From contig OZ025785.1 of assembly GCA_964019425.1 (NCBI GenBank), forward strand, positions 434,001 to 498,000: a stretch of 64,000 nucleotides of DNA, in the 5' to 3' direction. This stretch comes from Flectonema sp. DT1601 (Eukaryota). The stretch's first letter is position 1. Each line of letters begins with the position of its first letter. Shown here one piece after another: positions 1,721 to 50,800 of the stretch. The notes below the pieces were generated by a model that had not been told where the DNA came from, ran no database searches, and was given only the letters and a program-made list of their open reading frames with translations. The position numbers and the translations under genes were made by a program.

Positions 1721-3397
1721 AAAAACTACTCACACCTGAAGAAAACATACACAAAGAACACACTGTAAGCTGTGTGTGTATTTTGTGTTTGTCACAACAG
1801 GAGAGAAAAGAAAGAATGTCAAGGTTGGTCACCTTGCCTATCAACGCACAACATTGGTGGTCTCTACTAGACCCTGAGTGATCCCACTGGATCTCTCATC
1901 GTTCATAGTACCCTATGTGAAGTTATAAAATCAAAGGTAAACTATGAACTACAAATGACTTAGCCTGTTATTATAATGCCACAGGCAGGCCCTGCATTCA
2001 GCAACTATCCAGCAGTGCTTGAATGTCCTGATCTTCTTCTAAAAAAAAAGAAAGAAAAACAAAACTGTAGCTGGGATCACTCAGGATCAACAGACTACCA
2101 ATGCTACCTGTTGTACTTGCTCACTATGGGGGGTGATGCCAAACACCCAGAAGTACTAAACTGCTTTCCTTCTTGCTGCCCAGGGGTTTCTGACCAGAAC
2201 TAATAGAAAATAAAAACAGATGGGAAACAATAAAAAGTAAAATGAATATAACTGAAGTTAAACAAGAATGTTGGTCCTAGACAAGACCTTAAACTGACTA
2301 ACCGGTCTTAATTTTAACTAAGTGTTAACCTAGTTTCCTAGTTTCTAATATGAAATCTTTTTTCTTTTTTTTTCTTTTTGAACAAAATGTAATTATTAAT
2401 GTAAAAAAATGAAGAAACAGACCAGAACAGATAGAGAATAAAAAAGAAAAGATAATTGCAAGAGTTATTGTAGTAAAAGATTACAAATAAAAAAAAAATG
2501 CAAGTATCAACACATGATCGAGATACACCAGCAGCTAACAAACAACATAAAATTGAAGATCAGTTGCCAGAGTATTTCAACCATGGTAGAATACTCGCCC
2601 CTCTGGCAGGGATTATCCCAGACTTGTCCTTTAATTTAGTTGGCATCTTCGAAAACGTGAGTGTGAGAGAAAGAAGTGATCGAGCTGTATAAAGAATTTC
2701 TTTTTGAAAAAATAGAAGGCTAAAGAATATATAAAAAATGTCTGTTGTTTTGTTCATTTTTCCAACTTCGGAATCATACACTTTTCTGTCTGATTCCTTT
2801 GATTATTTCTTTCCGGTGCTAAGCTTGGTGGAAAATTACCTGAATGAATTCTAGATATAAATACAATCAGTTTAAATAAAAAAAAAAAAAAAAATAAATA
2901 AATAAAAAAAGATTAACGATCAAGCTGAGCTGATCTTGTTTTTATTAAAATAAGGGGAGCGGGAGGGATGGAAGGAATAAAGGAAAAAAAAAGAAAAGGT
3001 CGATCAATTGGATCTGATCGTCGAGAAGAAGGAAACAATTATTTTTAAAAAAAAATGATCGGTATAGCCGATCGTTGAGAAAAGAACAGATATAAATACA
3101 ATCGGTTTTGGTGATCGACGAGTGGAGCGATCACTTGACAAGAAGGAAAAAAGAAAGGACCGATTAATTGGGGCTTTGGTTGTATTCCCAAGGCATGTTT
3201 TTTTTTTTTTTTTTATTATTCATTTACATTATTTTTTTTTTTTTTTTTTAAATTAATAATCACATTTTGTTCAAAAATATTTCATATTAGAGTAAAAGAA
3301 AAAGAGAAAAAAGAAATAAGAGAAAAAAAAAAAAAACCATTGCTGGCCCCCTCACCACTCATAGAGGATGAGGAGGCCAGTAAGGCGTCACTCAAAT

Positions 3398-4132
3398 CTA
3401 TGCCAAGCCTTGGGAACTTGGATTGGGGTTTAGACCATTTACAATTAACTTCCTGTGAGACTCCCTCGCTACCCTTGATTTGTGGGCGAAGAAATCCATG
3501 GTCGTTGAGACCGGTTTACTTTCGGCATCCTTCGAGACTTCTTTGGCCAGCTTATCAGCCTTATCGTGTGGTTCAATCCCCACATGGGCCGGGATAAACT
3601 GGAGATGCACCTGTGTCTTCAGATCCCTAATGCTTTCCAGTATTAACAGAGAGTTCAACTTCCTCTGGGCAACAATCCCTCCATTGAGTTCCTCCAGGTT
3701 GGATTTCGAGTCACTGAAGATTCTGGTAATACCTGACCTGGGACCCAAGATCGAGTCAGCTTTGCCAATTTCTCTCATCAGCAGTTTGAGTGTTACTTGT
3801 TCAGCCTTGTAGCTGCTTTCAGTAGCTACAAGTCTTGACGACATCGTTCTCTCAGTTGGTGAGACCTGTACTGCTGCCGCACCCGCAGTGTAGTTAACAG
3901 GATCATGTGAGCCGTCCACATATATAGCCGAGTTGCAAGGGACTAGGTCCCTGCAGTATTCCTCAAATTTGTTCCTGTCCACATCTGCATCACCGGTCTT
4001 GTTATGACCATACCCACAGGATATCTCTAGATTTGGTACATCCGCCCAGGGTTCGATGCTGTCAGGTTGAACTATTCCTTGGAGGGCGATGTTACAATCT
4101 TCCTGCGGCAACTTAGAACTCCAGAATCCTCG
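3398..4132 (-). pseudogene. RNase H region of a non-LTR (Ingi/I-like) retrotransposon, fragment
   Basis: RNase HI motifs YVDGS, SSYKAE, IFSDSKS, QFIPAHVGI..HDKADKLAK. No ATG; the 5' break abuts the tandem array at 4131. Confidence 0.85.
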
Positions 4133-4574
4133 TCCAGGTCAAGACGCTAAACTGATTGTTTTTTTTTTCAAAATTAATAAAAAAGAATATAAAAAAATAC
4201 AAAAAAAAGAATAAACAATGTTATCATTGTTTTTTTTTATCGTTCGACTTTGTCGACTAATTTCTATTTTCCGTTTTTTTTCTTTAAAAAATAAATAAAA
4301 AGAATTTAAAATAAAAAAAAAAGAATAAACAATGTTATCATTGTTTTTTTTATCGATCGACTATGTCGATTACTTTCTATTTTCCGTCCTGGTCAGGATG
4401 CTAAACTGATTGTTTTTTCTCTAAAAATAAATAAAAAGAATAAAAAAAAAAAAAAAGGAATAAACAATGTTATCATTGTTTTTTTTTTATCGATCGACTA
4501 TGTCGATTACTTACTATTTTCCGTCCTGGTCAAGACGCTAAACGGATTGTTTTTTCTTTAAAATAATTAAAAGG

Positions 4575-4607
<33 letters not shown>

Positions 4608-4740
4608 ATAAACAATGTTATCATTGTTTTTTTCTATCGATCAACTATGTCGATTAATTTCTATTTTCCGTCCTGATCGAGACGCTAAACTGATTGTTTC
4701 CTTTTTTTAAATAATAAATAAGAAAAAAAAAAAAAAAAAA
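4131..4740. repeat. ~120-150-bp tandem repeat array with internal hairpins and poly-A/poly-T tracts
   Basis: Core CGTCCTGGTCAAGACGCTAAACTGATTG at ~4131, 4385, 4522, 4669. Units carry AAACAATG-TTAT-CATTGTTT and ATCGAC-TAT-GTCGAT inverted repeats. Confidence 0.9.
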
Positions 4741-5829
4741 AAGAGCATCTCCCTGCTATCCCTCATATCCCCACAATAATATTATACCTTTTCATTTTCT
4801 CTTTCCTTTTCTGGTCTTTTTTTTTTCTTTTTTTTCCTTTTTCATACAACGTTTTTTATTTATATATCAGTCATTCCTTTTTTTTGCGAACAAATTCTGG
4901 ACACTGAAAAAAAATTTCAAAAAAAAATTGTAAAAATTTCGATCGAAGCGGCATTTTAATGCGCTGCATCGTTGGGTTCATTTCCGTCCGAAATCGGGAG
5001 GTTGGCATCACATACTTGTCTCCCGAATTGAGAAAAGAGATTTTGCGGTTTACTAAATCAGCTCAGCCGTGGACAAGTACCAAAACTAAAAATTAATCGA
5101 AGGGTCTAATTTTACACTGCTGGCCCAGCGGGATCCAGAGAAAAAATAATCGAGCAAAAATATATTAAAGAGTACTAAGCATGTGCCGGTGAGGCAGATT
5201 GTTACTACCTGTCTTTTTGGACCTACTTTGATACTTAATGATCATTATCACCACCACAGATGCAACATTTTCCTTACATAATTGCTACTAGGGTTGATTT
5301 GTTAGTAAAAAGGTGCATATCTCTTGAGTGCGGGAGAAGGGGGAAAAAATAGTAAAAAAAAAAAAATTAGGGGTGTTTTTTACTCAGATTTTCTCGATCT
5401 TTCCATTCCAGGTCTGGGATTAATATTTATCATTGAGTAGTACCAAGGAAATTTTGCAAAGAGACGTTTATCTCTTTTTAGCAGCACTTACCATGTTTAA
5501 AAGTATATCCCTATGCCTAATTTTACAGATCGCACCCTCCCCGATTCCAAAAAATAAAAAATCGAGCAAAAGTAACATATCGTGTAACCTTGCTCAGGCG
5601 GTGAGAAAAAGGTGTTTTTTGTTCGCAAAAAAAAGGAATGACTGATATATATATATTTTTTTTTTTTTTTTCATGTTTGATTATTTCCAATTCAATTTTT
5701 TCAATTTTTTTTTTTTCTTTTCTTTTCTTTTCTTTCTTTTTATTTTTTTTTTTCTCTGCCTCTCTCTTAATTCTGTTCGTTTCTTTGAAACGAAAATTCA
5801 TTTGAATATTATTCCTTGGTCAGCAACCA

Positions 5830-8700
5830 TCATTGTCGCCCTTTGGGCCTGTTAAAAAAAATAAAAATAAAAAGAAAGTTTACATCGGGAATAGGGCAGG
5901 AGCCAAAAGCTCCCAGTCCGTTACTTCCCACTTTATCGAAATTCGCTATTCGGTTCGTCGAACGTACCCACTTCAGCGATCGATACCTAAACAGAGCAGT
6001 TCTGGCCTGTTTTTCTATTATCAACTTCATCGGGAGCATGTTCGCCTCCAAGAGCAGTGGGAGAGACCTGGTGTAGATGCTGCAACCCGTTATCCTTCTC
6101 GCAATCTTCTTCAGATTCAAGTCCACAAGATCAATCTGACCCTCAGATAGGAAAGGACCGAAGCTCTCCAGCCCATATGACAGCCTTGAAAGTATGTACA
6201 GGTTCTTGACCATGCACAGCGTCTTAAAATCAAAATCATACTGTTCTAGTTTCCCCAGGAGTGCAAGACCCTTCCTGGTCTCATCCAGCATCTTTCCGAC
6301 CTGTGTTCCATAAGATAAATCACCATCAATGTGCACCCCCAGGTATTTAACGCTGTCTACCATCGGCATCAGTACTGCGGTTAACAACTTTACTCTCAGC
6401 TTACTTGATCCATCAGGGAAAATTTCAAGCAGGTCCTTCGTATTAGCAACTTCGGTATCATCCACCTTGAGAATGGTTTCTCCACTCCCCAGAATTGGCC
6501 TTCCAAACTCGTTCGGTCTGATCATCTTAGCCAGATCTCCCCTGCTTACAACGTAATAATTATCCTTTGCAGTCCTGGGGAAGCCCAGTCTCCAGTAGAT
6601 ATCCTTTGGGCAGCGCACAGGCATACCACATGTCTTAGAGACGGACAGTGCCATATCATTGGTTTTGCACCAGCTATCCACAAGTCCAAGGATCCATTGC
6701 GCTTTCTTATTGGTTAAATTAACGTCCTTATCAGAGACTACACAAGCGGTGTCATCTGCATAAAGAGCCGAAACTGAGCCAGTCTTCTCCAACAACTTTG
6801 CCAGGTCATCAACATAAATCAGGTATAGCAGCGGACCGATAATCGATCCTTGGGGAACCCCCCTCGTTACCGTTCTGTAGGAGCTAAGGTTGCCATTCGC
6901 ACTCACCCTTGCCTGCCTGCCCTTCAGGAAGTCAACTACCCACGCAATGAACGGAGAGGGAATACGCATGTTCTTCATCTTCTTGATCAGTTTCTCATGA
7001 TTAATTCTATCAAATGCTTCCGTGAAGTCGAACGACAGCAGAACAGAGCTCTTGTTCTTTTCACTGGCCTCATGAAGAGCGTTGACTAACATTGAAATCT
7101 GCTCACACGTATTCCTTCCTCTTCTAAAACCCGCCTGGATAGACGACAGGGCATTGTTCTGGGTAAGCCAATACATCAACCTATCATAAATCACTCTTTC
7201 AAGTACTTTACCCACCACCGAGGTCAACGTGATCGGTCTGAAACTTGCGATCTTATCTTTTGGCTTACCTGGTTTGTAAACTGGCTTGATAAGACCCTCC
7301 TTCCAGATCCTCGGTACCTTTGACGTTAGCCACGATTCATTGAATAACGCCAGGAGGAAATCCATTCCTATCACCGATAAGTTCTTCAACATTATCCCAT
7401 GGATTCCATCTGGACCTGGTGCTTTCCCGGGCCTTACCTTCTTGATGGCTCGCTTCAGTTCAGTCATTGTTAGATTCCCTCCGATTTTGGCGAAGTCGCT
7501 GCTCTTCGTATTCGGAGGTCCTAGTTTACGTTTTGTCGGGGTCTTAACAAATTGTTCCAAGAACTTCGCAGGTAGTTGGTTCTCGTCAAACTCCGGAATG
7601 TGAATTTCACGTCCTTCATCCGTCTCAAGGTCCTTTATCTTTTTGAACGCATATGCAAAGCCTTCACCTTTTGCTAGCCGTTCAGCGATAAATTTTCCCT
7701 TCGCACGCTTGGTATCTGGGGTGGAAGCGTTCCACATTCTTCTTCTCTTCCCTTTGATCCGAAGCCTTCTTCTAACGTACCTCTTCGCTACTCCAAGAAC
7801 GATTCTGTTGAACGTTACTGCTCTTCTCCCAACGCTCGCAGAGTTGTTTACCTTTCCAAACCTGTAGTCTAGTTCATGTTCATATGAGTACCAATCAGCT
7901 GTATTGAAGTCCCAGACCGATCTCTTCGTCGCGTGGTTGCCCGAAGGCTCAAGGGGTGAGAGCGTATCGAAGGTAGCAGAGAGTGGTGTATGATCCGAAC
8001 CGTGCTCAATTCCTTCACCTACCAGCTCAAAGTTCAGCAGTTGAATCTCCTCGTGGTGCAGGATCAGATCGGGCGAGGTCCCATGTCTCGGCAGTGTCGC
8101 TAGACCTGGCGGGTTCGCAATCAGGAGGTCCTCTTGCCCTGTCCAGTTGAGAAGGTCACAGCCTTTTACGTCGGTTTTCTTGGACCAGTACCTATGGTGT
8201 GCGTTGAAGTCACCAGCGAGAATGAACTTGCCAACACGTTTCAGGGAGAATAGTTCAAAATTAATCCTCGAGCTCGGTGGGGAGTAGATGTTGAGAATAC
8301 TTACGTCTTCGTTAATTCTGACACCCATCGACTCGACGGTTCCTCTCATCGACGGTATGGAGATATCAAAGCAATCATGTTGAATTCCTCGTTTTATTAA
8401 AGTGATCAGGCCACCTCCCCTTCCTGGCCTATCCCTCCTGTAGCAAACGTAGTTCCAATGAAACAATGCCATCCTGCAAGAAGTCTCCTGAAGGCAAAGT
8501 ACGTCGGGGTCAAGCTTACTCAGGATGTGTCCAATGAACTCCATTTTGTTCGAGATGGTGCGACAATTCCAACTGATTACATTTAGTTTGCAAGAGGGAC
8601 CATCCTTTCTCCTATTCGGCCCTGGGTTTCGTTCAACGTCCCCTGCTATCAGCAAGAGACGTCTTCGAGTCTCAGCCCAGTTCCTTCCATCTACGTGCCG
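5830..8700 (-). CDS. LINE ORF2: 2A-APE-RT. The last ~16 codons (5830-5880) run into non-element AT-rich DNA.
   Basis: Uninterrupted frame from the TGA at 8701-8703 to 5830. No AUG before the first APE motif. Confidence 0.88.
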   Translation of the reverse strand, partial: RHVDGRNWAETRRRLLLIAGDVERNPGPNRRKDGPSCKLNVISWNCRTISNKMEFIGHILSKLDPDVLCLQETSCRMALFHWNYVCYRRDRPGRGGGLITLIKRGIQHDCFDISIPSMRGTVESMGVRINEDVSILNIYSPPSSRINFELFSLKRVGKFILAGDFNAHHRYWSKKTDVKGCDLLNWTGQEDLLIANPPGLATLPRHGTSPDLILHHEEIQLLNFELVGEGIEHGSDHTPLSATFDTLSPLEPSGNHATKRSVWDFNTADWYSYEHELDYRFGKVNNSASVGRRAVTFNRIVLGVAKRYVRRRLRIKGKRRRMWNASTPDTKRAKGKFIAERLAKGEGFAYAFKKIKDLETDEGREIHIPEFDENQLPAKFLEQFVKTPTKRKLGPPNTKSSDFAKIGGNLTMTELKRAIKKVRPGKAPGPDGIHGIMLKNLSVIGMDFLLALFNESWLTSKVPRIWKEGLIKPVYKPGKPKDKIASFRPITLTSVVGKVLERVIYDRLMYWLTQNNALSSIQAGFRRGRNTCEQISMLVNALHEASEKNKSSVLLSFDFTEAFDRINHEKLIKKMKNMRIPSPFIAWVVDFLKGRQARVSANGNLSSYRTVTRGVPQGSIIGPLLYLIYVDDLAKLLEKTGSVSALYADDTACVVSDKDVNLTNKKAQWILGLVDSWCKTNDMALSVSKTCGMPVRCPKDIYWRLGFPRTAKDNYYVVSRGDLAKMIRPNEFGRPILGSGETILKVDDTEVANTKDLLEIFPDGSSKLRVKLLTAVLMPMVDSVKYLGVHIDGDLSYGTQVGKMLDETRKGLALLGKLEQYDFDFKTLCMVKNLYILSRLSYGLESFGPFLSEGQIDLVDLNLKKIARRITGCSIYTRSLPLLLEANMLPMKLIIEKQARTALFRYRSLKWVRSTNRIANFDKVGSNGLGAFGSCPIPDVNFLFIFIFFNRPKGRQ
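8617..8655 (-). other. 2A-like StopGo (ribosomal skipping) peptide LLIAGDVERNPGP
   Basis: Exact match to the D(V/I)ExNPG|P consensus, preceded by a Leu-rich tract. Confidence 0.92.
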
Positions 8701-8960
8701 TCATTTACCTTCCAAGAATCTCGTCATCAGCATCTCTAAACGATCCATCCTTCGTTCCATCGTATCCTGTTCAGCTGTCGACTTCTTCACAGTTTTCTTT
8801 GTCACAACCTGCTCTACAGGACCTACTTCCTTCAAGGCTCCTTTCCTCTCCTCAATCTTCACACCCGCTTCCCGCCAGAGTCTCTTCCCCTTCCCCTTAC
8901 CATGAAAGGATAAGAATTCTGCTCGCAAGTAGCAACGATTAGAGGCCTCCCCCTCCGTTT
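8701..8960 (-). pseudogene. C-terminal fragment of LINE ORF1 (basic, ends in a short coiled coil), 5'-truncated
   Basis: Same frame as ORF2. Ends ...MERRMDRLEMLMTRFLEGK*. The frame closes near 8960 at a compositional boundary. Confidence 0.6.
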
Positions 8961-9334
8961 TTTATTTACAACATATTCCCTTCCCGCTCCTATCGGAACG
9001 GAAAGGGAAAATATCCCTCCCTTAACTGAAATGCACTCTGCAAGTTGTATTTCAATTCTGAATGAAGCATTTCGACTCGATAGCTATGTCGCATAAATTT
9101 ACATTTATGTTTTAGTCGCTGAAGTATATTGGTTCACTTATTTATAATATTTTTGTATATATTATTCCCTTAGGAGTTTAAGGAATATTAAAGAGTGAAA
9201 TATTGATGTTTAAAGATTTTCTGAGATAGTTGTTTGGTCTTGATTTAATGTAGTTAACACCTTAACATACTTTTATCAGACTTTTTCACCTCTTTATATC
9301 CAACTCCTCATTTTTTAGGGTTCAAATTGATGAA

Positions 9335-10054
9335 ATGCAGCGGAACATGTCGGATGTTAATATGCGTCCTGAAGTGGAGGTGAATATGCGTCCTGAAGCA
9401 GAAGTGAATATGCGTCCTCAGGCGGATTATAATTTTCGTACCGAACACCAAACCTGTCCACCAATTCCTGGTGGTTACCATCACTTGAATAGTTCAGACG
9501 TTAGTAATGTTCCTTATCATATGGCAGCACAGAGTGAAGTCTTGATGCAGATGGCGGCGATGATGAGGGAACAGAGTAGGCCGAAAGGTAGTGATAAAGA
9601 CGATATAGCTCTTGAACCAAACTTCGCGACAGATGCGAAGCAATTTATTCAATGGCGTGGGATTATTGGTAATCCTGCCGATCCGTATGCGACGGATAAT
9701 TTAATTCGCGATCTTTACGCGAAGTATGTGTCGGCTGCTACCGCTAGCTCGCAGTTTCAGTCTAGTCAGCTGAACAGAGATTGGGAGATGCTGAAGGACG
9801 GTATAATCTCGGTACGGGATTTTGTGTTCTTCGGGTACTATAGGTGGTACGACTTGCCGGCCTACACTCGAAACTTGAACAGAATGTATCGCAGATTGAT
9901 ATATTCGTCCAATGAGTTCAAGAAGGAACACAACACTCCTAGGAGTGGCAAAGGCGGTCAGGTACAGAGGTTCACAGCTTACAAGGGGGGCTACAATTGG
10001 AGTGGAAAAGGAGCGAAGTCGATGGGAAACGTGAAAGGGGCTGGCTCCAAGTGA
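9335..10054 (+). CDS. Gag-like ORF1 with three N-terminal VNMRPxxx repeats
   Basis: 239-aa ORF just upstream of YR and RT. TTTTAG acceptor-like site just 5' of the ATG. Confidence 0.75.
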   Translation: MQRNMSDVNMRPEVEVNMRPEAEVNMRPQADYNFRTEHQTCPPIPGGYHHLNSSDVSNVPYHMAAQSEVLMQMAAMMREQSRPKGSDKDDIALEPNFATDAKQFIQWRGIIGNPADPYATDNLIRDLYAKYVSAATASSQFQSSQLNRDWEMLKDGIISVRDFVFFGYYRWYDLPAYTRNLNRMYRRLIYSSNEFKKEHNTPRSGKGGQVQRFTAYKGGYNWSGKGAKSMGNVKGAGSK

Positions 10055-32250: not shown

Positions 32251-34755
32251 ATGAGGGAACCGATTGTACCTCGACCTCCTCCTCAGCCTGAGGCGATTGA
32301 ATTAAAAAAAGACCGCGACAAGTGGCAGAGACGACTCAACTCTCTCGACAACACTATAACAAAAGTATCAGAACAACCAGTGGTAAGTCACGATGAAAAT
32401 AAAAATAAGAATAAAGGAATGGCTGTGAAGATGCGAGAAGAAGGACTTGAAATTATTAAAAAATGGAAACAAGCTCAGGAAAGTATTTATGTGATGTCAA
32501 CAAGTCTTGAGAATCACTTAAACGGTGAGTCAGTTTCGGTTAAAAAGAAACCTCTGAAGGTTAAAATATCATTGTCGAAAACACCAAATTGGCAAACTGT
32601 TTGTACGGCATTTGAAAAAGCTTCATCACTGCTGTCGTGGTTGAGGTGTAAACAGATATCAGTTTCGTCATCGAAATATCTCCGAGACTGTTATTGGGAT
32701 TCAGTTAACATGTCTAACATTGATTCATTCACAGAGCCTGGAATAGAAGAACCATACCCATGTGGGTTAACTAATCCAAAAAAAGCAGTATCAACACCGT
32801 TGATTCGAATCAACTTATCTGACTTATTCCCCGACAATGAACCAATAAAGAATCTAACATCAATGACAGCTGGTTATTCAGAGGGTCGATTCTTATATTG
32901 GTGTACCTCCGATGAGTTTAATTTATCTCATTCTCTGTGGGAGTTAGACAGAGATAGTTCTCATGTGGGTAACAGAAATTCGTTAATATATTCATGGATG
33001 ACTTATAATGGTCTTAACAAATCAGGAGTTGAGTTATCAACATGTGAGTATCCACCATGTATATTATTACTTGGTAAAGGTTGTGAATGTGGAATTGAAA
33101 TTATTGACTCTGCGAATAAACAACTCAACAGTTCTGAGTCAGATGAAAAACAAGAGTCTGGTGTCGCTCACGACAGTCAGGTTAAATCAACGTTTTCTGA
33201 CATTGTTTGTTGTGACGATCGAGTTGTCGGAATTGAAAATTTTATTGACGAAGGATGCACCAGTCAGGCCCTAGTGAGTATATCTGTCACAAATAATGAA
33301 TCAGTAGTCACAAGACGACTTCAAGCAGCTGGGAAATGTATCAGCTCACCCACTATCAGTCCTGATGGAAGTACAGTTGCATGGCTTAGTTGGGGATCAG
33401 ACAGGTCAATCACTGATGGATGTTTGTTATCAGAGGCGTACTTCAACGATAACAATTCTCTTAATCACGCGAAGGTAATTGACGGAAGTCCTACAGCGAG
33501 TGTTCTCTCACCGACTTACCTGTTGAATGGAAGCTTAGTGTACTTGTGCAATCAAGGATGTGATAATTTCAGCTTATACAAATCTGACAAGGGGTGTCCT
33601 GGTGTTAGTTTGGTGTGCATTGGTGAGGCTCGTCACAAACATGATTGGGGTAGTTCTCGTTACATTACTCCATTGAAGTACGATAGTTGGGATAAAATTG
33701 CACTGATTGGATCGAGAGGTCACCTCGACCTTCTATTTATATATGACATGAAGGACAATACACTTCTATCTGACGACATCCTCCCCCACCATGGGGTTAG
33801 TCGCCTTTGGGACATCAAGGCAATTGATGAGGGTCAGGTTGCCTTATTCTGTTCTGGGATGGCGCTGACTACGCAGCTTATTATTTACAATTTCACATGC
33901 AAGACGGTGAAGACTGTTGATTTTGGAACTCGTCCGAGAACATGTCTTGGGAGGGGAGGTCGGAAAAGCTGTTCGGATTTTGCAAGATTTCCGATATCGA
34001 GTTCTCCTATTCCTCTGGATGAGGACAACAGGGGATGGCTGTTCGTACCTCCAGGTGGTGAGGTGCCGGATATTTCATTGAATTGGTGTGCGGAGTGTCC
34101 ATTGTCGGAGAGAATTCCGCTTATCATCTGTCCTCACACTGGATGGGGAGATACATGGCAGTCAGATGTATGGGATTTATCAACACAGTACTTCACATCA
34201 AATGGTTATGCTGTTTGTCACATTACTGTTTCTGGTTGTATTGGATACGAAAGACAGTTGAGAGAAGAAGGTTTTAAAAAATGGATTCGCAGTGGAGCTG
34301 AAGACATCATCTCAGCTGTTCATAAGTGTAATAGAATGTGTCACATTGACATGCATCACGTATCAATTAGAGCTTCGTCGTTGGATTGTTTGATCGCTCT
34401 TCAATCCACAACACTACCAGGGAGCTTCACCAGATGTGTTATGTTATCTGGTTTTATCCCTCCTTCCTCTGCCATGACTCTCAGAAGTACACCCGAGTAC
34501 TCTATTTCATCATCACTTTTATCACTTGGTGATTCTTTTTTAAAACCAGAATCTCTTCGTGTTCCTGTATTATATTCACATTGTAAAGATGATTGTATCT
34601 CATCATTGGAAGATGTACAAAGATTTATATCACAAAGTGATCATCCATTATCTCAGTCAAATATCGTTGAAGGGAGTTGTCATCCACCACCTGCGAGGTC
34701 AATTTTAGATCGTGAGCTTAACTTTATCAATAATGTGATGTGGGATCCGTTGTAA
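32251..34755 (+). CDS. S9 (prolyl oligopeptidase / acylaminoacyl peptidase) family protein, probably inactive
   Basis: SPDGSTVAW beta-propeller, PLIICPHTG, QYFTSNGYAV, G.IGY, PVLYSH..DD...H. The nucleophile elbow reads IRASSLD. Confidence 0.75.
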   Translation: MREPIVPRPPPQPEAIELKKDRDKWQRRLNSLDNTITKVSEQPVVSHDENKNKNKGMAVKMREEGLEIIKKWKQAQESIYVMSTSLENHLNGESVSVKKKPLKVKISLSKTPNWQTVCTAFEKASSLLSWLRCKQISVSSSKYLRDCYWDSVNMSNIDSFTEPGIEEPYPCGLTNPKKAVSTPLIRINLSDLFPDNEPIKNLTSMTAGYSEGRFLYWCTSDEFNLSHSLWELDRDSSHVGNRNSLIYSWMTYNGLNKSGVELSTCEYPPCILLLGKGCECGIEIIDSANKQLNSSESDEKQESGVAHDSQVKSTFSDIVCCDDRVVGIENFIDEGCTSQALVSISVTNNESVVTRRLQAAGKCISSPTISPDGSTVAWLSWGSDRSITDGCLLSEAYFNDNNSLNHAKVIDGSPTASVLSPTYLLNGSLVYLCNQGCDNFSLYKSDKGCPGVSLVCIGEARHKHDWGSSRYITPLKYDSWDKIALIGSRGHLDLLFIYDMKDNTLLSDDILPHHGVSRLWDIKAIDEGQVALFCSGMALTTQLIIYNFTCKTVKTVDFGTRPRTCLGRGGRKSCSDFARFPISSSPIPLDEDNRGWLFVPPGGEVPDISLNWCAECPLSERIPLIICPHTGWGDTWQSDVWDLSTQYFTSNGYAVCHITVSGCIGYERQLREEGFKKWIRSGAEDIISAVHKCNRMCHIDMHHVSIRASSLDCLIALQSTTLPGSFTRCVMLSGFIPPSSAMTLRSTPEYSISSSLLSLGDSFLKPESLRVPVLYSHCKDDCISSLEDVQRFISQSDHPLSQSNIVEGSCHPPPARSILDRELNFINNVMWDPL

Positions 34756-35643
34756 AAAAAAAAAAGAAAATAGAAGTTTGTCTCTTTCATATCTGTTATG
34801 TTATCTACACTCGTCCTCATTGGTTCTCCACTAGGTGCGCACAGGTGACGTGCGAATTAATTTTTTTTCTTCTCCCTCATTCTCATTTCAACAAGTGAAA
34901 ATTTATTATAATTAAAAACTAAGTTCCCCCGGTTGATGATGATTTCCGTTTTTGGGATTCATCTTTGGATTGTTACTTGGTTTTGGTATTTCAGTTACAC
35001 ATTTATAAGAAAATAAAACACAAAAACCTTTATTCAACTGGTGCATTATATCTTCTAATAAATGACTCGCATCAATAAATCCAATGAGATTCCTTCTGTC
35101 TCTTACCTACCTGCTATCTGTGGAAACAACATTCAAGGGAACGTCTCGTATTATTTGAAGGTCTTTTTTCTTTTCTTAATTATCGTTGGGAAAAAGTTCT
35201 CGAATTGAAGTTACGTATCTTTTGAATTAATTCTTCATCACCAGAAACTACTGTTTTGTTCTTTTTATTTTATTTAAGTGTAAGTTGTAACGGATTGGAC
35301 TCTCAACCTGATAGTACGTGGTCCCTGAATTACCGGATTCGACAACGTCTTCTGGTCAATGAGACAACGAACTTTTTCTTTTATTAACAACTATTCAGTC
35401 GAATACTTTGATATTAGTTTTTGTATTAATACCTAAAGTTGTTATTGTTTTTACATTGTGAAAGTTTCACCCCTCCATGAAGTACACGCAATACAAGTAT
35501 TTAAATTAATTAATTCCGCAGTCATAGTGCGTAGCGATGATTGTTCTCTGGTGTCAGTTATCATGTGAATTACGTTCTTGAATTGAAGTTACGTATCCTT
35601 TGAATTAATTCTTCATCACCAGAAACTCATCCAGTTAAAAATA

Positions 35644-37440
35644 ATGACAACTATCGATTCCCTGTCCTCTGTTTTGAGGAGCCATCAGAGGTTCATGGCG
35701 AAGCTGCTGGTGGAAGTGGTGAGTCGGAAGGAGGAGTCGGGGGCGCTGATGGACAGCTTTTCAGAAGTTCTCAGGTCGTCGGAGGAGATCATGGATGGAA
35801 TGACGGATGCTGAGGCTGCGACTGAATTGACGACGTACAAGGAAGTACACCGGGTGGCGAGGGAGAAGGAGTCGGCGAAGTTGGTGGAAGGAAGCTCGCG
35901 ATTACTGGGAACCCTTTCCTTGCATCCTGACATGAAGTGTGACGATATCGGGTTTGTTAAAGCTGATCTCAAGGGGGAGGGGAAGTTGGAGTTGGTCGAA
36001 GATGACCTGAGGAATGTATTCTCGTCCACCTGCTTCCCTCGGATGCTGAACGAGGATGAGTATTTCAACACACTTCAAATTGGTTACTTGGGCATGGGTG
36101 AAACAGAGGAGGGTGTCCCAGCCCAACTCAGGAAGGAACTCTTCCTGCTGCTGGACTGGCCGAGACTCTCCCACTCGTCGAAGGAAGAAGTCAAATCCCA
36201 ATTTGACAACACCTCATGGGGTGCTGAGATCCTCCGTGAGCTGGAAGATTCGAACAACTGGGGTACTGTGAAAAGAACATACAAATGGCCTCGGTATGAA
36301 CGTGTTGTGACTGCGGAGGAGTTGAGAACTTCACATCTTCGTACTCGAATTGACATTTTGTTCGCACAAAATCCTGACATGTTGTGTGTCCTCGATGCCT
36401 CAGAATATATCAACCATAAAGGAACCCTTTCTAGTGATTGTGTTAAGATGCTTCCGTCTTGCATCCGCCGGTTGTCATTCACCAACTGCGGCCGTTGCAT
36501 CGCATTTGAAAAGCAGTTCCGAGAAAAGCAAGAGTTCCTGTCAGACAGTTGTGACTCGCTGACGTCAATCGATTTCACTGCTTTTCACAACGTGACGGCC
36601 ATCCCCAGCAAGTTCTTGTATAATTCAAAGTCCTTGACTAGCGTGGATTTGTCTTCCTTGAGTGAAGTTACGAGCATTGGCGATTACTTTATTTGTCACT
36701 GTGAGTCCCTCACCTCCATCGATGTTTCCAGTTTGAAGAAGCTGACTGAAATTGGACATGGATTCTTGCATAATTCAAAGTCTCTGACTAGCGTGGATTT
36801 GTCTTCCTTGAGTGAAGTTACGAGTGTTGGCGATCACTTTATTGGTGACTGTGATTCCCTCACCTCCATCGATGTTTCCGGTTTGAAGAAGCTGACTACA
36901 ATAGGAGGTGGATTCTTGCTATGCTCAAAGTCTCTGACTAGCGTGGATTTGTCTTCCTTGAGTGAAGTTACGAGTGTTGGCGATCACTTTATTAGTTACT
37001 GTGAGTCCCTCACCTCCATCGATGTTTCCGGTTTGAAGAAGCTGACTACAATAGGAGGTGGATTCTTGCGTAATTCAAAGTCTCTGACTAGCGTGGATTT
37101 GTCTTCCTTGAGTGAAGTTACGAGTGTTGGCAATAACTTTATTAGTGACTGTGAGTCCCTCACCTCCATCGATGTTTCCGGTTTGAAGAAGCTGACTGAA
37201 ATAGGACATGGATTCTTGCATAATTCAAAGTCTCTGACTAGCGTGGATTTGTCTTCCTTGAGTGAAGTTACGAGTATTGGCTATTACTTTATTAGTAACT
37301 GTGAGTCTCTTACCTCAATTGATGTTTCCGGGTTTCGGAAAGTGACTACAACAGGAGGTGATTTGTTATGGAATACAAAACTAACTAAGAAAGATGTCAA
37401 GGGATTGGAAGATTGTAGTTTTTCCGTGCGATTGCGTTGA
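35644..37440 (+). CDS. LRR protein paralog 2 (BspA-like, alternating 24-aa LRRs)
   Basis: Repeats SLTSVDLSSLSEVTSVG / CESLTSIDVSGLKKLT.IG. Confidence 0.9.
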   Translation: MTTIDSLSSVLRSHQRFMAKLLVEVVSRKEESGALMDSFSEVLRSSEEIMDGMTDAEAATELTTYKEVHRVAREKESAKLVEGSSRLLGTLSLHPDMKCDDIGFVKADLKGEGKLELVEDDLRNVFSSTCFPRMLNEDEYFNTLQIGYLGMGETEEGVPAQLRKELFLLLDWPRLSHSSKEEVKSQFDNTSWGAEILRELEDSNNWGTVKRTYKWPRYERVVTAEELRTSHLRTRIDILFAQNPDMLCVLDASEYINHKGTLSSDCVKMLPSCIRRLSFTNCGRCIAFEKQFREKQEFLSDSCDSLTSIDFTAFHNVTAIPSKFLYNSKSLTSVDLSSLSEVTSIGDYFICHCESLTSIDVSSLKKLTEIGHGFLHNSKSLTSVDLSSLSEVTSVGDHFIGDCDSLTSIDVSGLKKLTTIGGGFLLCSKSLTSVDLSSLSEVTSVGDHFISYCESLTSIDVSGLKKLTTIGGGFLRNSKSLTSVDLSSLSEVTSVGNNFISDCESLTSIDVSGLKKLTEIGHGFLHNSKSLTSVDLSSLSEVTSIGYYFISNCESLTSIDVSGFRKVTTTGGDLLWNTKLTKKDVKGLEDCSFSVRLR

Positions 37441-38712
37441 AGATATTTTGAGACATCAGAGATTAGGACACAAAATCCTGGAAATCCTCATTAACCTCGA
37501 TATTGATGAGATTATGCCCTCGGGTGATGTACACAAGGTGGATACTACTTTCCGATAACAGAAAAGTACAATGACACTGACATGCAAAACTTGTTCTTCA
37601 AAAATAGCACTAAAGAATCTACGCCAAAAAAGGTAGATGCAGGAGCGGATTCAGTTATATGAAACAATTAGAATTCACTTCTCACTCAAAACTACGCACA
37701 TTACAACACGTGAAACCCTGGAAAAAGTTCTAGATGAAGTATTGAAACAATATTTAAAACGTATACCATTTCTTATAATCTCACAAAGAACACCATATAC
37801 ACATTATATACTCTTCATTGGAGAGGAAATGGAATACAAAGGTTTTGATATTATCAAATCTACAGACAGTTGTGCTGAAATAGAAAACATTCGAATATCA
37901 TGCTGTGATGTACTCGTCTGAAGATATCCCTCCTGTTGATTTCGAGTCATTTATTCTTCCTGTTGAAACACATCAAAAGAGTTCAACTACCAACGTAACA
38001 TAACAAATGAACAGAATGACGATGTACAAATGGAAGATAATAATAATGTAAAAAAAATGACTCAAGACGACGATGTTGCAAGGCTACAATTTTTATTTAG
38101 TGTGCTATTTTCAAAAGTTTCAACCCCCTCCGTTGTGCCGTCTAACGAGAAACTATAAACACTTTGAGTAAGTATTGATTTACTAATCTAATTATATTAC
38201 TGATCTTCAGAATAGAATGGTCTGAGTTAACAATATGAGCTCACTCAAAATCAATTAACTCCCTCCACGCAAGAGTACGCCGCTAGCAGTGTACTACTAA
38301 CTAGTCCTGTAATACGAACTGTTTTGTTCTTTTTATTTTATTTAAGTGTAAGTTGTAACGGATTGGACTCTCAACCTGATAGTACGTGGTCCCTGAATTA
38401 CCAGATTCGACAACGTCTTCTGGTCAATGAGACAACGAACTTTTTCTTTTATTAACAACTATTCAGTCGAATACTTTGATATTAGTTTTTGTATTAATAC
38501 CTAAAGTTGTTATTGTTTTTACATTGTGAAAGTTTCACCCCTCCATGAAGTACACGCAATACAAGTATTTAAATTAATTAATTCCGCAGTCATAGTGAGT
38601 AGCGATGATTGTTCTCTGGTGTCAGTTATCATGTGAATTACGTTCTTGAATTGAAGTTACGTATCCTTTGAATTAATTCTTCATCACCAGAAACTCATCC
38701 AGTTTAAAAATA

Positions 38713-40338
38713 ATGGCAACTGTCGATTCCCTGTCCTCTGTTTTGAGGAGCCATCAGAGGTTCATGGCGAAGCTGCTGGTGGAAGTGGTGAGTCGGAAGG
38801 AGGAGTCGGGGGCGCTGATGGACAGCTTTTCAGAAGTTCTCAGATCGTCGGAGGAGATCATGGTTGGAATGACGGATGCTGAGGTTGCGACTGAATTGAC
38901 GACGTACAAGGAAGTACACCGGGTGGCGAGGGAGAAGGAGTCGGCGAAGTTGGTGGAAGGAAGCTCGCGATTACTGGGAACCCTTTCCTTGCATCCTGAC
39001 ATGAAGTGTGACGATATCGGGTTTGTTAAAGCTGATCTCAAGGGGGACGGGAAGTTGGAGCCGGTCGAAGATGACCTGAGGAATGTATTCTCGTCCACCT
39101 GCTTCCCTCGGATGCTGAACGAGGATGAGTATTTCGAGACAGTTCGAATTGGTTACTTGAGCCTGACTACTTCAGAGGATGGTGTCTCACCCCAACTCAG
39201 GAAGGAACTCTTCCTGCTGCTGGACTGGCCGAGACTCTCCTCCTCGGGGAAGGAAAAAGTAAAATCCGAATTTGACAACACCTCATGGGGTGCCGAGATC
39301 CTCCGTGAGCTGGAAGATTCGAACAACTGGGGTACTGTGAAAAGAACATACAAATGGCCTGAACGTGTTGTGACTGCGGAGGAGTTGAGAACTTCACATC
39401 TTCGTACTCGAATTGACAATTTGTTCACACAAAATCCCGACATGTTGTGTGTCTTCGATGCCTCAGAATATATCGACGATGAAGGCACCCTTTCTAGTGA
39501 TTGTGTTGAGATGCTTCCGTCTTGCATCCGTCGGTTGTCATTCACCAACTGCAGCCGTTGCACTGCATTTGAGCAAGAGTTCCTGTCAGACAGTTGTGAC
39601 TCGCTGACGTCAATCGATTTCACTTCTTTTCACAATGTGACGGCCATCCCCAGCAAGTTCTTGTATAACTCGAAGTCTCTGACTCACGTTAATTTATCCT
39701 GTCTGAGTAAAGTAACCAGCATTAGCGATAACTTTATTAATAACTGTGATTCCCTCACCTCCATCGATGTTTCCGGTTTGAAGAAGCTGACTACAATAGG
39801 AAGTGGATTCTTGCTATGCTCAAAGTCTCTGACTAGCGTGGATTTGTCTTCCTTGAGTGAAGTAACGAGTGTTGGCTATAACTTTATTAGAAACTGTGAG
39901 TCCCTCACCTCCATCGATGTTTCCAGTTTGAAGAAGCTGACTACAATAGGAAGTGGATTCTTGAATAATTCAAAGTCTCTGACTAGCGTGGATTTGTCTT
40001 CCTTGAGTGAAGTTACGAGTGTTGGCAATAACTTTATATGTAACTGTGAGTCCCTCACCTCCATCGATGTTTCCGGTTTGAAGAAGCTGACTGAAATAGG
40101 ATATACATTCTTATATAATTCAAAGTCTCTGACTAGCGTGGATTTGTCTTCCTTGAGTGAAGTTACGAGTGTTGGCAATTACTTTATGAGTAACTGTGAG
40201 TCTCTTACCTCAATTGATGTTTCCGGGTTTCGGAAGGTGACTACAACAGGAAGTAATTTGTTATTGAATACAAAACTAACTAAGAAAGATGTCAAGGGAT
40301 TGGAAGATTGTAGTTTTTCTGTGCCATTGAGAAGATAA
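38713..40338 (+). CDS. LRR protein paralog 3
   Basis: Same architecture with fewer repeats. Shares ~390 bp of upstream DNA and ~75 bp of downstream DNA with paralog 2. Confidence 0.9.
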   Translation: MATVDSLSSVLRSHQRFMAKLLVEVVSRKEESGALMDSFSEVLRSSEEIMVGMTDAEVATELTTYKEVHRVAREKESAKLVEGSSRLLGTLSLHPDMKCDDIGFVKADLKGDGKLEPVEDDLRNVFSSTCFPRMLNEDEYFETVRIGYLSLTTSEDGVSPQLRKELFLLLDWPRLSSSGKEKVKSEFDNTSWGAEILRELEDSNNWGTVKRTYKWPERVVTAEELRTSHLRTRIDNLFTQNPDMLCVFDASEYIDDEGTLSSDCVEMLPSCIRRLSFTNCSRCTAFEQEFLSDSCDSLTSIDFTSFHNVTAIPSKFLYNSKSLTHVNLSCLSKVTSISDNFINNCDSLTSIDVSGLKKLTTIGSGFLLCSKSLTSVDLSSLSEVTSVGYNFIRNCESLTSIDVSSLKKLTTIGSGFLNNSKSLTSVDLSSLSEVTSVGNNFICNCESLTSIDVSGLKKLTEIGYTFLYNSKSLTSVDLSSLSEVTSVGNYFMSNCESLTSIDVSGFRKVTTTGSNLLLNTKLTKKDVKGLEDCSFSVPLRR

Positions 40339-47884: not shown

Positions 47885-50800
47885 ATGTTGCGAATTGCTG
47901 TCGCTTCATCAGCAGTAGCTGTCGCTTTGGGATGCTTCCCAACTTGCGATGATGACTGCAACAGATTATCACCTCCACAACTTGGTGAGGTGACTAGACT
48001 GAGGAAACTTAAGGAGAAGTGTACTTCTGGAGAGGAAGTTGTGTTCAACGTTGACTACAATCCTTGTACTCATAATTTAGATTATAAAGTACGAACACCA
48101 GACAATTGTGAACAGAGACAGGGAAATGTGTTTACATGCAAGAACAATAAGAGGTGTAAAGTTATCCCATTCCTTACTGAATTAAAGTTCTGTGACTGCT
48201 CTTCAAGCCCAGGACCTTCACCTCCAACTACTCCAACCAACCCATGCGGTAGTAAATGTGGAGCTGAAGAGATATGTTACATGAGGGATACTATCTGTAA
48301 TACTTTTAGTTGTCATCCAGTCCCAACATGTATTACTAACCACTGTATGTTTAGCAAGTGTGAATATGGTAACGATTGCGTCATCACAGACCACGGAGAT
48401 TCATCGACCTGCAAGCCTTGGTCTGAGATTGGATGTTTTGACAAGCCGTGCAAGGCAGGATACACTTGTGTTGATGTTAAGAGAGTCTGCAAGACTGCCC
48501 CATGTTATCAATATGAGTGTAGTTGGGAAGCACCAGCTCCAGTTCACTGTACGGCCGATGCCAAGAAGTGTCCTGACGGCTCCTCCGTTGGAAGAGATTC
48601 CAACAACAACTGTGAGTTCCACCCTTGCCCTGATCCATGTGGAGGAAGTTGTTTGTTTAACCAAGATTGCTTAATTCAGAAGATTAAGTGTCCTGAGGGA
48701 ATGGTTTGTACACCACGCGCTGTTTGCTTTGACAAGCCTTGCAACAAGAAGTGTCCAAAGGGTGACGTTTGTGAACACATGGTTGCTCCGTGTCTGATTC
48801 CACCATGCCCAGTAGTTGAGACGTGTAAAACTGTTGTTCAGCCAAAGTGTGACAAGAAGTGCCCAAAGGGTGAGGTTTGTGAGATCGTTGTTGCTCCATG
48901 TCTGATTCCTCCGTGCCCGGAGTTCCCAACATGCAAACCTGTCGTTCAAGTGTGTACGGATGATGCGAAGCAATGTCAAGATGGCTCCTTCGTTGGGAGA
49001 GATTCCAACAACAACTGTGAGTTCCACCCATGCCCTGATCCATGTGATGGAGCTTGTAAGTTCAATCAGGACTGCTTGTTGAAGAATGTAATTACGTGTC
49101 CTGAGGGAATGGTGTGCCCTCCGACTGTTGTTTGCGTTGACAAGCCTTGCAACAAGAAGTGTCCAAAGGGTGACGTTTGCGAGCTCATGGTTGCTCCGTG
49201 TCTGATTCCACCATGTCCAGTAGTTGAGACGTGTAAACCACTTTCACCACCAACTACTCCAACCAACCCATGCGGTAGTAAATGTAGAGCTGAAGAGATA
49301 TGTTACATGAGGGATATTATCTGTAATACTTTTAGTTGTCATCCAGTCCCAACATGTATTACTAACCACTGTATGTTTAGCAAGTGTGGATATGGTAACG
49401 ATTGCGTCATCACAGACCACGGAGATTCATCGACCTGCAAGCCTTGGTCTGAGATTGGATGTTTTGACAAGCCGTGCAAGGCAGGATACACTTGTGTTGA
49501 TGTAAAGAGAGTCTGCAAGACTGCCCCATGTTATCAATATGAGTGTAGTTGGGAAGCACCAGCTCCAGTTCACTGTACGGCCGATGCCAAGAAGTGTCCT
49601 GACGGCTCCTCCGTTGGAAGAGATTCCAACAACAACTGTGAGTTCCACCCTTGCCCTGATCCATGTGGAGGAAGTTGTTTGTTTAACCAAGATTGCTTAA
49701 TTCAGAAGATTAAGTGTCCTGAGGGAATGGTTTGTACACCACGCGCTGTTTGCTTTGACAAGCCTTGCAACAAGAAGTGTCCAAAGGGTGACGTTTGTGA
49801 ACACATGGTTGCTCCGTGTCTGATTCCACCATGCCCAGTAGTTGAGACGTGTAAAACTGTTGTTCAGCCAAAGTGTGACAAGAAGTGCCCAAAGGGTGAG
49901 GTTTGTGAGATCGTTGTTGCTCCATGTCTGATTCCTCCGTGCCCGGAGTTCCCAACATGCAAACCTGTCGTTCAAGTGTGTACGGATGATGCGAAGCAAT
50001 GTCAAGATGGCTCCTTCGTTGGAAGAGATTCCAACAACAACTGTGAGTTCCACCCTTGCCCTGATCCATGTGATGGAGCTTGTAAGTTCAATCAGGACTG
50101 CTTGTTGAAGAATGTAATTACGTGTCCTGAGGGAATGGTGTGCCCTCCGACTGTTGTTTGCGTTGACAAGCCTTGCAACAAGAAGTGTCCAAAGGGTGAC
50201 GTTTGCGAGCTCATGGTTGCTCCGTGTCTGATTCCACCATGTCCAGTAGTTGAGACGTGTAAAACTGTTGTTCAGCCAAAGTGTGACAAGAAGTGCCCAA
50301 AGGGTGAAGAATGTGAATTAATTGACACCCCTTGTCCATTCCCTCCATGCTCAAAGGCTGAGATCTGTTCACCAATTGGATGTGGTGATGATCTAAAAGA
50401 CTGTTCAGATGGAAGTAGTGTTGAGAGAGATCCAAAGAACGGTTGTCAGTTCTTCCCGTGTCCTGTTGATGGTGAATGTGAAGATGAAGATGATTGTGAA
50501 GGCTGGAATTTCTGTATTGAGGGTAAGTGTGTTGATGCATTTGAGGGAACTTGTAATTCCGTTAAAGACTGTAACGGTTACGGATGCTACTACAACGACA
50601 ACAAGGAACCAACTTGTCGTACCACCTGCATGGGAGAACCAACCTGGTTGTGTGACAAGAACCACCTCTGTTTGGGAGATGAGTGTGTTGATATGAAGCA
50701 GTGTAAGACTAACTGTGGAAACCTTGTTCCTCATTTATTTAAAGGAAATGACGACGGAGACAACAGTTGTAATGAATGCACCTGCTTCAATGGTGACTAC

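What the first reader, a model, noticed from the sequence alone, without database searches (positions are those of the whole stretch)
8617..8720. LINE ORF2 has no start codon: in-frame UGA-CGG followed by a 2A StopGo peptide
Seen on the - strand: ORF1 ..GGT AAA TGA CGG CAC GTA.. continues in frame as RHVDGRNWAETRRRLLLIAGDVERNPG|P into the APE domain. The first Met lies inside APE, after the SWNCRT motif. The AUG overlapping the stop (AUGA) opens only a 10-codon dead-end frame. Established: UGA-CGG is a known leaky context in alphaviruses and tobraviruses, and 2A peptides precede APE in L1Tc/ingi-type elements. Inference: readthrough sets a low ORF2:ORF1 ratio and 2A then releases free EN-RT, two recoding events within 30 codons.
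Basis: partly seen in the sequence, partly recalled or inferred. Interest (0 to 1): 0.75.

Follow-up and report, generated by a model that had tools for sequence, protein, structure and literature searches.

The report
Leaky stop plus 2A in LINE
A young jumping-gene (LINE) family, likely from a marine diplonemid protist, keeps a stop codon between its two in-frame genes and has no start codon at the head of the second, so some ribosomes likely read through the stop and a predicted 2A 'skip' peptide would then free the copying enzyme.

Summary
Confirmed and strengthened. The window holds a dead, truncated copy of a young LINE family (ORF1 1,054 aa; ORF2 endonuclease-RT-RNase H). ORF1 ends at an in-frame UGA-CGG; 27 codons later comes a canonical 2A site (DVERNPG|P); the first in-frame AUG is codon 53, inside the endonuclease. 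The stop is fixed: all 11 retrieved ORF1 proteins that reach this end stop there, no fused form was found, and four other families (one in Flectonema neradi) end at the homologous place. A frameshifted sister-family protein shows the leader conserved as peptide (24 of 25 residues; codon position 2 kept 25/25, position 3 only 9/25) with no Met possible, so the ORF2 frame is likely translated from within about three codons of the stop. New: a 13-bp hairpin at +38..+66 exceeds what the peptide explains and keeps 12/13 pairs in the sister. Readthrough then StopGo is the best reading (about 0.65); AUG-independent reinitiation, as proposed for L1, is the main rival. Against: no robust stem at the usual 8-nt spacer, CGG not shown in sisters, some relatives have an AUG, nothing tested in RNA or ribosomes. 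No LINE readthrough case was found in eight literature searches.

The parts
8704..8958 (-). 3' remnant of ORF1 (residues 970-1054 of the 1,054-aa family ORF1p); the copy is 5' truncated here
   Evidence: tblastn 100% to P0197 970-1054; P0197 found, members
8701..8703 (-). In-frame UGA ending ORF1, context AAA-UGA-CGG; proposed readthrough site
   Evidence: sequence; fixed in copies; homologous end in four other families
8672..8704 (-). AUG overlapping the stop (AUGA), -1 frame, 10 codons then UGA; dead end
   Evidence: in the sister family this frame would stop at the codon 3/4 boundary (letters)
8617..8700 (-). Met-less 27-codon leader ending in the 2A/StopGo motif LLLIAG-DVERNPG|P; predicted skip between 8620 and 8619
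   Evidence: conserved as peptide in a sister family, 24 of 25 residues
8635..8663 (-). Predicted 13-bp RNA hairpin (+38..+66 from the stop) inside the 2A coding sequence
   Evidence: pair probabilities 0.81-1.0 in all 6 folding windows; 12 of 13 pairs kept in sister
8618..8684 (-). Predicted extended stem-loop enclosing the hairpin (outer helix +21..+25 with +75..+79, plus +17/18 with +82/83)
   Evidence: the outer helix is largely set by the peptide (5 of 5 pairs in 50-68% of synonymous recodings)
8542..8544 (-). First in-frame ATG (codon 53), downstream of the W-N strand of the endonuclease
   Evidence: gene calls of the family start here (8 of 15 listed)
5944..8616 (-). ORF2 first part: APE endonuclease (about 8577-7984) and reverse transcriptase (about 7263-6331)
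   Evidence: Pfam; 99.8% to P0001 1-867
4136..5943 (.). AT-rich insertion that splits ORF2 in this copy, with about 140-nt tandem units and a 38-nt inverted repeat
   Evidence: an X1 contig joins across it, showing uninterrupted copies (loose end at 5942)
3443..4135 (-). ORF2 second part with RNase H (P0001 residues 867-1097); the last 146 residues are missing from this copy
   Evidence: Pfam RNase_H E 4.7e-5, 24 bits, just under the 25.8 cut-off

Best explanation
This LINE family keeps ORF1 and ORF2 in one frame on either side of a fixed UGA, and a small share of ribosomes likely reads through that UGA and is then predicted to skip a peptide bond at the 2A site 27 codons later, which would release the endonuclease-RT-RNase H protein starting at Pro without any AUG. 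Most ribosomes would stop and make ORF1p (long Q/E-rich region plus RRM-like domains, the RNA-coating protein). Readthrough would set the low ORF2p:ORF1p ratio, as gag-pol readthrough does in gammaretroviruses, and 2A would do the job that the protease does there. The UGA-CGG context and the conserved 3' hairpin are the likely stimulators. Shown: frame, fixed stop, absence of AUG, conserved leader peptide, conserved predicted hairpin. Inferred: readthrough, its rate, 2A activity, the role of the hairpin.
For: Stop fixed: 11 of 11 ORF1 proteins reaching the end stop there and no stored protein runs past it; no fused form; X1 contig identical across the TGA. Stop old: ORF1 homologues P0239, P0240, P0241 and Flectonema P0242 (31-47% BLAST identity to P0197) end at the homologous motif. 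ORF2 intact (1,243 aa from Met53) in 4 listed copies differing by 3-6 residues. Leader translated: the tail of P0243 (38% to P0197) is the +1 reading of a sister leader; codons 4-28 give 24/25 compatible residues, position 2 same 25/25, position 3 same 9/25, Met impossible; 15/16 match is the single best of 282,178 placements, next best 11. No near-cognate start in frame before codon 6. CGG is 3 of 919 codons and UGA-CGG plus a 3' stem-loop is the type II readthrough signal (PMC3542737; PMC3159437; the xxA-stop-CGx part of the Virgaviridae motif matches). Hairpin: 2 of 1,000 synonymous recodings as stable and 1 of 1,000 with a 13-bp helix; strongest of 33 tiles; 12/13 pairs in sister against 125-138 of 20,000. 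A second family (P0002 cluster, 71% identical) has its first Met at codon about 101, past the catalytic LQET.
Against: No ribosome, RNA or protein data. The robust stem starts at +17/+21, not at the usual 8-12 nt; the helix at +9 is unstable between folding windows (0.01-0.99), no better than recoded controls and has one broken pair in the sister. The sister's own stop context is lost in its frameshift: if its UGA sits at codon 2 the next codon is YYT, not CGG. The third conserved Virgaviridae position (xxG at +3) is not met. Three of nine related ORF2 groups have a Met before the 2A and two more have one just ahead of the endonuclease, so relatives may initiate normally. The P0240 family ends ORF1 at UGA-Y but shows no 2A in either decodable frame within 68 codons. 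A 3' structure also serves reinitiation in SART1. Part of the hairpin register comes with any LLLxAGDV coding sequence. Only one sister copy, a decayed singleton, carries the leader evidence.
Confidence: 0.65

Rival explanations
1. Termination-reinitiation without AUG: ribosomes stop at UGA and a fraction restarts in the ORF2 frame at codons +1 to +4, helped by the downstream hairpin; 2A trims the short leader and fixes the N-terminus.
For: Unconventional reinitiation is proposed for mammalian L1 and a downstream structure is required in SART1 (PMC5972666; PMC10275272); calicivirus reinitiation tolerates non-cognate start codons. Ingi-type 2As normally sit behind a short leader, so 2A needs no readthrough to be kept. 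The hairpin lies further from the stop than usual readthrough stimulators. Relatives with an AUG at -3 to +7 fit a reinitiating ancestor.
Against: Codons +1 to +5 (CGG CAC GTA GAT GGA) are not near-cognate to AUG; no UGGGA TURBS-like core in the 106 nt before the stop; ORF1 and ORF2 abut in frame with no spacer, and the codon after the stop is the rare CGG of type II readthrough.
Confidence: 0.18
2. AUGA stop-start coupling (SART1-like) followed by a +1 frameshift into the ORF2 frame, for example at the GGC-UGA-G that ends the 10-codon frame.
For: AUGA is a known stop-start overlap and is present; GGC-UGA is present in both families (letters).
Against: The ORF2-frame peptide is conserved from codon 4, upstream of that shift site, with synonymous changes at codons 5, 6, 7; in the sister the AUG frame would hit UGA at codon 3/4; an A before UGA is itself a readthrough feature, so AUGA arises for free.
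Confidence: 0.05
3. The UGA is recoded by another route: selenocysteine insertion, RNA editing of the stop, or a separate trans-spliced ORF2 mRNA with a non-AUG start.
For: A 3' stem-loop near UGA is also seen in some selenoprotein mRNAs (PMC3159437); trans-splicing is general in Euglenozoa (own knowledge).
Against: No Rfam SECIS or ribozyme match in 1800-9400 (but the element's 3' UTR is missing from this copy); the stop is not predicted in a stable duplex; a separate mRNA would still lack an AUG; host genes in the window end in TAA 9, TGA 3, TAG 1 of 13, with no sign of UGA reassignment.
Confidence: 0.07
4. The UGA is a nonsense mutation in a single ORF1-2A-ORF2 frame, copy-specific or carried by a master copy moved in trans.
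For: ORF1-2A-ORF2 single-frame proteins are annotated in a pseudoscorpion (PMC13405545); the copies are about 99.5% alike, so they may come from one master; most records may come from one assembly.
Against: All 11 ORF1 ends stop here, no fusion found; four other families in at least two species end ORF1 at the same place; ORF2 stays intact.
Confidence: 0.03

Closest known systems
[quoted passage not shown]
   Same: APE-RT-RNase H ORF with a 2A directly before the APE domain (PMC5814959 passages; PMC3708506); euglenozoan host likely.
   Different: Those are described as single-ORF elements with no ORF1, and 2A was proposed to replace ORF1 as the down-regulator. Here a 1,054-aa ORF1 is present, in frame, with a stop and no AUG before 2A.
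Type II stop-codon readthrough (alphavirus, tobravirus, coltivirus replicases)
   Same: UGA-CGG, A before the stop, predicted 3' stem-loop, polymerase downstream.
   Different: The robust stem starts 16-20 nt after the stop instead of 8-12 nt; host is a retrotransposon; products would be separated by 2A, not by a protease; untested.
Gammaretrovirus gag-pol readthrough
   Same: Abundant RNA-binding protein and rare RT made from one frame across a leaky stop (table 5).
   Different: UAG plus pseudoknot there; Gag-Pol is packaged and cut by protease; here a non-LTR element with 2A.
SART1 and mammalian L1 ORF2 expression
   Same: Bicistronic LINE with low ORF2 output; SART1 needs a downstream RNA structure.
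   Different: SART1 has a productive UAAUG overlap and L1 a 63-nt spacer and an AUG; here the overlap AUG is a dead end and there is no spacer.
Cardiovirus StopGo followed by -1 frameshift; ORF1p-2A-ORF2p proteins of Cordylochernes
   Same: Two recoding events a few codons apart (PMC5009743); 2A between ORF1p and ORF2p domains (PMC13405545).
   Different: Order reversed and second event is a frameshift in cardioviruses; the pseudoscorpion cases are annotated single proteins with no stop reported in the passage seen.

Membership tests
APE-type non-LTR retrotransposon (LINE) | APE endonuclease followed by RT in ORF2 | tested here: met
   Pfam PF14529, PF03372, PF00078 above cut-off
APE-type non-LTR retrotransposon (LINE) | Dispersed multicopy family with 5'-truncated copies | tested here: met
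   42 ORF2 and 23 ORF1 cluster members on many contigs; window copy truncated at 8958
APE-type non-LTR retrotransposon (LINE) | ORF1p with coiled coil and RRM | tested here: inconclusive
   Model pLDDT 83; best matches are RRM proteins, Z 8.4, rmsd 2.4, 73 aligned; Foldseek best E 0.004; no Pfam hit; coiled coil judged from Q/E-rich sequence only
Ingi/L1Tc clade | 2A directly upstream of APE; RNase H after RT | tested here: met
   (RNase H just under cut-off in the window; PF00075 on relatives P0004, P0006, P0008)
Ingi/L1Tc clade | Single ORF, no ORF1 | tested here: not met
   1,054-aa ORF1 against PMC3708506
Ingi/L1Tc clade | RT groups with named Ingi/L1Tc elements | not tested
   Tree of 47 RT rows gives a 100/100 clade of 12 rows with the Flectonema proteins but holds no labelled Ingi or L1Tc sequence
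Ingi/L1Tc clade | Pr77 hallmark with HDV-like ribozyme at the 5' end | not testable with these tools
   5' end absent from the window; no DNA of a full-length copy obtained
Type II stop-codon readthrough | UGA followed by CGG or CUA, in frame with the downstream ORF | tested here: met
   motif from PMC3542737
Type II stop-codon readthrough | Stem-loop starting about 8 nt 3' of the stop | tested here: inconclusive
   Significant conserved hairpin at +38..+66 within a stem from +17/+21; helix at +9 not robust and not above controls
Type II stop-codon readthrough | Measured readthrough product | not testable with these tools
   needs reporter, ribosome profiling or mass spectrometry
2A/StopGo (class A) | D(V/I)ExNPGP core with a leucine-rich upstream hexapeptide | tested here: met
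   LLLIAG-DVERNPGP; core and LLLLSG-like group from PMC12846837
2A/StopGo (class A) | Skipping activity | not testable with these tools
   The motif alone is not sufficient; only 43 of 580 retroelement contigs had highly active 2As and 56% mid-range in a 2026 preprint

The most novel reading that the evidence does not exclude
The first LINE clade that expresses its polymerase by programmed stop-codon readthrough, with an RNA hairpin written into the 2A coding sequence so that one 81-nt cassette both stimulates readthrough as RNA and, once translated, cuts the product as peptide: a protease-free gag-pol strategy kept across diplonemid families, and a living intermediate between two-ORF LINEs and the single-ORF 2A-bearing Ingi/L1Tc elements.
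Probability: 0.5. Interest if true: 0.85.

Novelty: new variant of a known kind. Interest (0 to 1): 0.74.

Why it matters
How LINE ORF2 is translated is a long-standing open question (stated so in PMC3894237 and PMC3708506); known answers are stop-start coupling (SART1) and unconventional reinitiation (L1). Readthrough chained to StopGo would be a third route and would give 2A a clear job in elements that still have ORF1, against the published view that 2A replaces ORF1. The cassette is about 90 nt, so it is directly testable in a reporter, and it would be a natural module for making two separate proteins at a fixed low ratio from one frame. It would also explain why gene callers truncate these ORF2s inside the endonuclease and miss the 2A.

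Tried and rejected
No whole genome is held, so no copy alignment at DNA level. Searches for sister-family DNA failed: metagenome contigs gave 14 loci of unrelated 2A-bearing elements, viral contigs none, genome contigs 21 distant RT loci at 23-41%. A pattern scan for TGACGG followed by a 2A core in viral contigs gave 5 loci, all 5 out of frame. No RNA holder was listed; runs X3 and X4 laid nothing and the X2 contig stops at 8693, short of the stop; X1 may not be independent of the window's source. A basal stem at the canonical 8-nt spacer looked strong in one fold and was dropped. P0248 seemed to hide an endonuclease in another frame, but did not beat shuffled controls against 10 targets; dropped. 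Rfam: 1 weak chance hit, nothing relevant. ESM Atlas: all hits under 0.9, leads only. pdb_via_wide was not run, so the ORF1 fold search is limited to Foldseek-ranked chains. Initiation at TTG/CTG/ATA (codons 16-18) rejected because codons 4-15 are conserved as peptide. UGA reassignment in the host rejected on weak grounds only (13 stops). Three look-ups of earlier findings returned nothing.
Full report
Observation. The sequence is as described. On the - strand ORF1 ends GAA GGT AAA TGA (8703-8701) and continues in frame as CGG CAC GTA into RHVDGRNWAETRRRLLLIAGDVERNPG|P and the endonuclease. The downstream frame carries APE and RT domains above Pfam cut-offs. The first in-frame ATG is codon 53, after the W44-N45 strand; in-frame near-cognate codons before the skip site are AGG (6), TTG (16), CTG (17) and ATA (18). 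The AUG overlapping the stop gives 10 codons. This is the only canonical 2A motif in the six frames of the window.

The element. The window copy is dead: it begins at ORF1 residue 970, has a 1.8-kb AT-rich insertion at 5943-4136 and lacks the last 146 residues of ORF2. The family is young: ORF2 proteins of 1,243 aa differ by 3-6 residues among 4 copies and ORF1 proteins of 1,054 aa by 2-6 among 4; the clusters hold 42 and 23 members, of which 15 each were listed. The closest named relatives are from the diplonemid Flectonema neradi (ORF2 51%, names; ORF1 P0242), so the host is likely a diplonemid (inference). An RT tree of 47 rows (one row, P0276, dropped) puts 12 rows, including the Flectonema ones, in a 100/100 clade; it has no labelled Ingi reference. 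ORF1p has a long Q/E-rich N-terminal half and a C-terminal part modelled at pLDDT 83 from 19 sequences, whose best structural matches are RRM proteins (Z 8.4, rmsd 2.4, 73 residues; Foldseek best E 0.004): the usual ORF1p build, weakly supported.

Is the stop fixed? Yes. Ten of the 15 listed ORF1 members reach the C-terminus and all ten end in RFLEGK; the other five break off earlier; an eleventh protein (P0244) ends the same way, and no stored protein runs past it. Eight of 15 listed ORF2 members start at Met53, none holds it internally, the other seven are shorter pieces. A search for proteins of 1,674-4,780 aa found 27 hits, none closer than 35%, so no fused copy. One contig of run X1 spans 8618-8785 with no difference; it may not be independent. 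Four other families end ORF1 at the homologous place: P0239, P0240 (7 of 10 members reach that end and stop), P0241 (2 of 2) and Flectonema P0242 (3 of 3). Most ENA records may come from one assembly, so they count as copies, not as independent organisms.

Is the leader translated? No sister DNA could be fetched, but one sister protein gives it indirectly. P0243 (38% to our ORF1, 78% to P0239) is a frameshifted copy whose tail is the +1 reading of a leader like ours; it is the only out-of-frame 2A signature among all stored proteins. For codons 4-28, 24 of 25 residues are compatible with the window peptide, codon position 2 agrees at 25 of 25 and position 3 at only 9 of 25, and Met is impossible throughout; the 15-of-16 match for codons 4-19 is the single best of 282,178 placements, next best 11; against shuffled targets it scores 19 of 20 versus at most 14. 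That is the pattern of protein-level selection in the ORF2 frame from codon 4 on, upstream of every shared near-cognate start. So ribosomes likely enter the ORF2 frame at or within three codons of the stop. Limits: one decayed singleton; first codon positions are not fixed by the decoding; its own stop context is lost (either UGA-YYT two codons closer, or a longer deletion), so CGG is not shown conserved.

RNA structure. The first 80 nt after the stop fold with z -3.65, and the two lowest-z windows of 76 along the element cover it (z -1.94 over 144 nt). A 13-bp hairpin at +38..+66 is matched in energy by 2 of 1,000 synonymous recodings (12 of 1,000 with uniform codons) and in helix length by 1 of 1,000 (2 of 1,000), and is the strongest of 33 tiles. 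Nine distinct natural sequences coding the same LLLIAGDVERNPGP or nearly (13 loci) give helices of 5-10 bp, some in the same register, so the peptide supplies part of it. The sister keeps 12 of 13 pairs, reached by 125-138 of 20,000 recodings. Against the textbook picture, the helix at the 8-nt spacer is not robust (0.01-0.99 over six windows) and no better than controls. StopGo itself does not depend on mRNA structure (PMC12846837), so the hairpin needs another job.

Relatives. Of nine related ORF2 groups, three have a Met before the 2A (P0004, P0005, P0180), two just before the endonuclease (P0149, P0006) and four inside it (P0001, P0135, P0007, P0008); P0009 was left out as a likely fragment. 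P0007 and P0180 are almost identical in RT yet differ in that Met, which suggests it is dispensable (inference). The P0002 family (74 members) has its first Met past the catalytic LQET in 6 of 15 listed. The P0240 family ends in UGA-Y but shows no 2A within 68 codons, so the arrangement is not universal.

Mechanism. Best: readthrough of UGA-CGG, then StopGo, giving abundant ORF1p, a little ORF1p extended by 28 residues, and free ORF2p starting at Pro (0.65). Rival: reinitiation without AUG right after the stop (0.18), with precedent in L1, SART1 and caliciviruses. Minor: AUGA plus +1 shift (0.05), Sec, editing or a separate mRNA (0.07), nonsense mutation (0.03). Nothing here was measured in ribosomes.

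What is known. 2A before APE is known in Ingi/L1Tc, described as lacking ORF1; a few CR1 elements have both (PMC3708506: passages and section 7; PMC3894237: parts 1-2 of 3; PMC5814959: passages). Type II readthrough is from PMC3542737 and PMC3159437 (passages). Chained recoding occurs in cardioviruses (PMC5009743, passages). 2A between ORF1p and ORF2p domains is noted for Cordylochernes (PMC13405545, passages). Passages were also seen from PMC5972666, PMC10275272, PMC8310308, PMC13517186 (no mention of retrotransposons), PMC12846837 and bioRxiv 10.64898/2026.09.24.754024 (passages and section 31). Eight searches showed no report of stop-codon readthrough in a non-LTR element or of readthrough followed by 2A; the library lacks most subscription papers, and no supplements were read (the 2026 preprint's list of retroelement 2As could include this family). 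It works like gammaretroviral gag-pol with 2A in place of protease; it is a LINE, but fails the single-ORF criterion of Ingi.

Verdict. Real, fixed and conserved feature; new variant of a known kind; interest 0.74.

Noticed in passing
L001-L004 (2A at about 4025-4067): Metagenome retroelements in which an RT-RNase H-like ORF runs through a 2A motif (RWVRLLLLIAGDVERNPG|P) into what looks like a tyrosine recombinase, i.e. StopGo in a DIRS-like element; domain names judged by eye.
   Followed up: no
window 9266-12888 + and 314-1729 -: A VIPER/TATE-like element by eye: gag-like ORF, recombinase-like ORF 10055-11254 and an overlapping 981-codon frame with RT/RNase H-like motifs; no Pfam hits.
   Followed up: no
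window 13585-15297 -: 570-codon ORF with a weak GIY-YIG hit (E 0.0077, under cut-off), possibly Penelope-like.
   Followed up: no
window 4136-5943 and 16407-16683: AT-rich insertion with about 140-nt tandem units and a 38-nt 97% inverted repeat (4857-4894/5618-5655); related units recur near 16.5 kb; likely nested non-autonomous elements.
   Followed up: partly
P0240, P0281, P0282: ORF1 of a sister family is fused in frame to cysteine-protease N-termini (Peptidase_C1 and I29 in P0240) in three records, and to another shared N-terminus in four more; may point to targeted insertion into multicopy host genes.
   Followed up: no
P0250, P0253, P0254, P0256, P0261-P0263, P0266, P0269, P0271-P0273: A small motif (RRDP...YT..EF..F.G...G..LW..A) near the ORF1 C-terminus also occurs, often repeated, in unrelated proteins; not scanned against Pfam.
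   Followed up: no
window 29200-40338 + and 47885-57470 +: Three paralogous leucine-rich-repeat-like genes and two long cysteine-rich repeat proteins in tandem.
   Followed up: no
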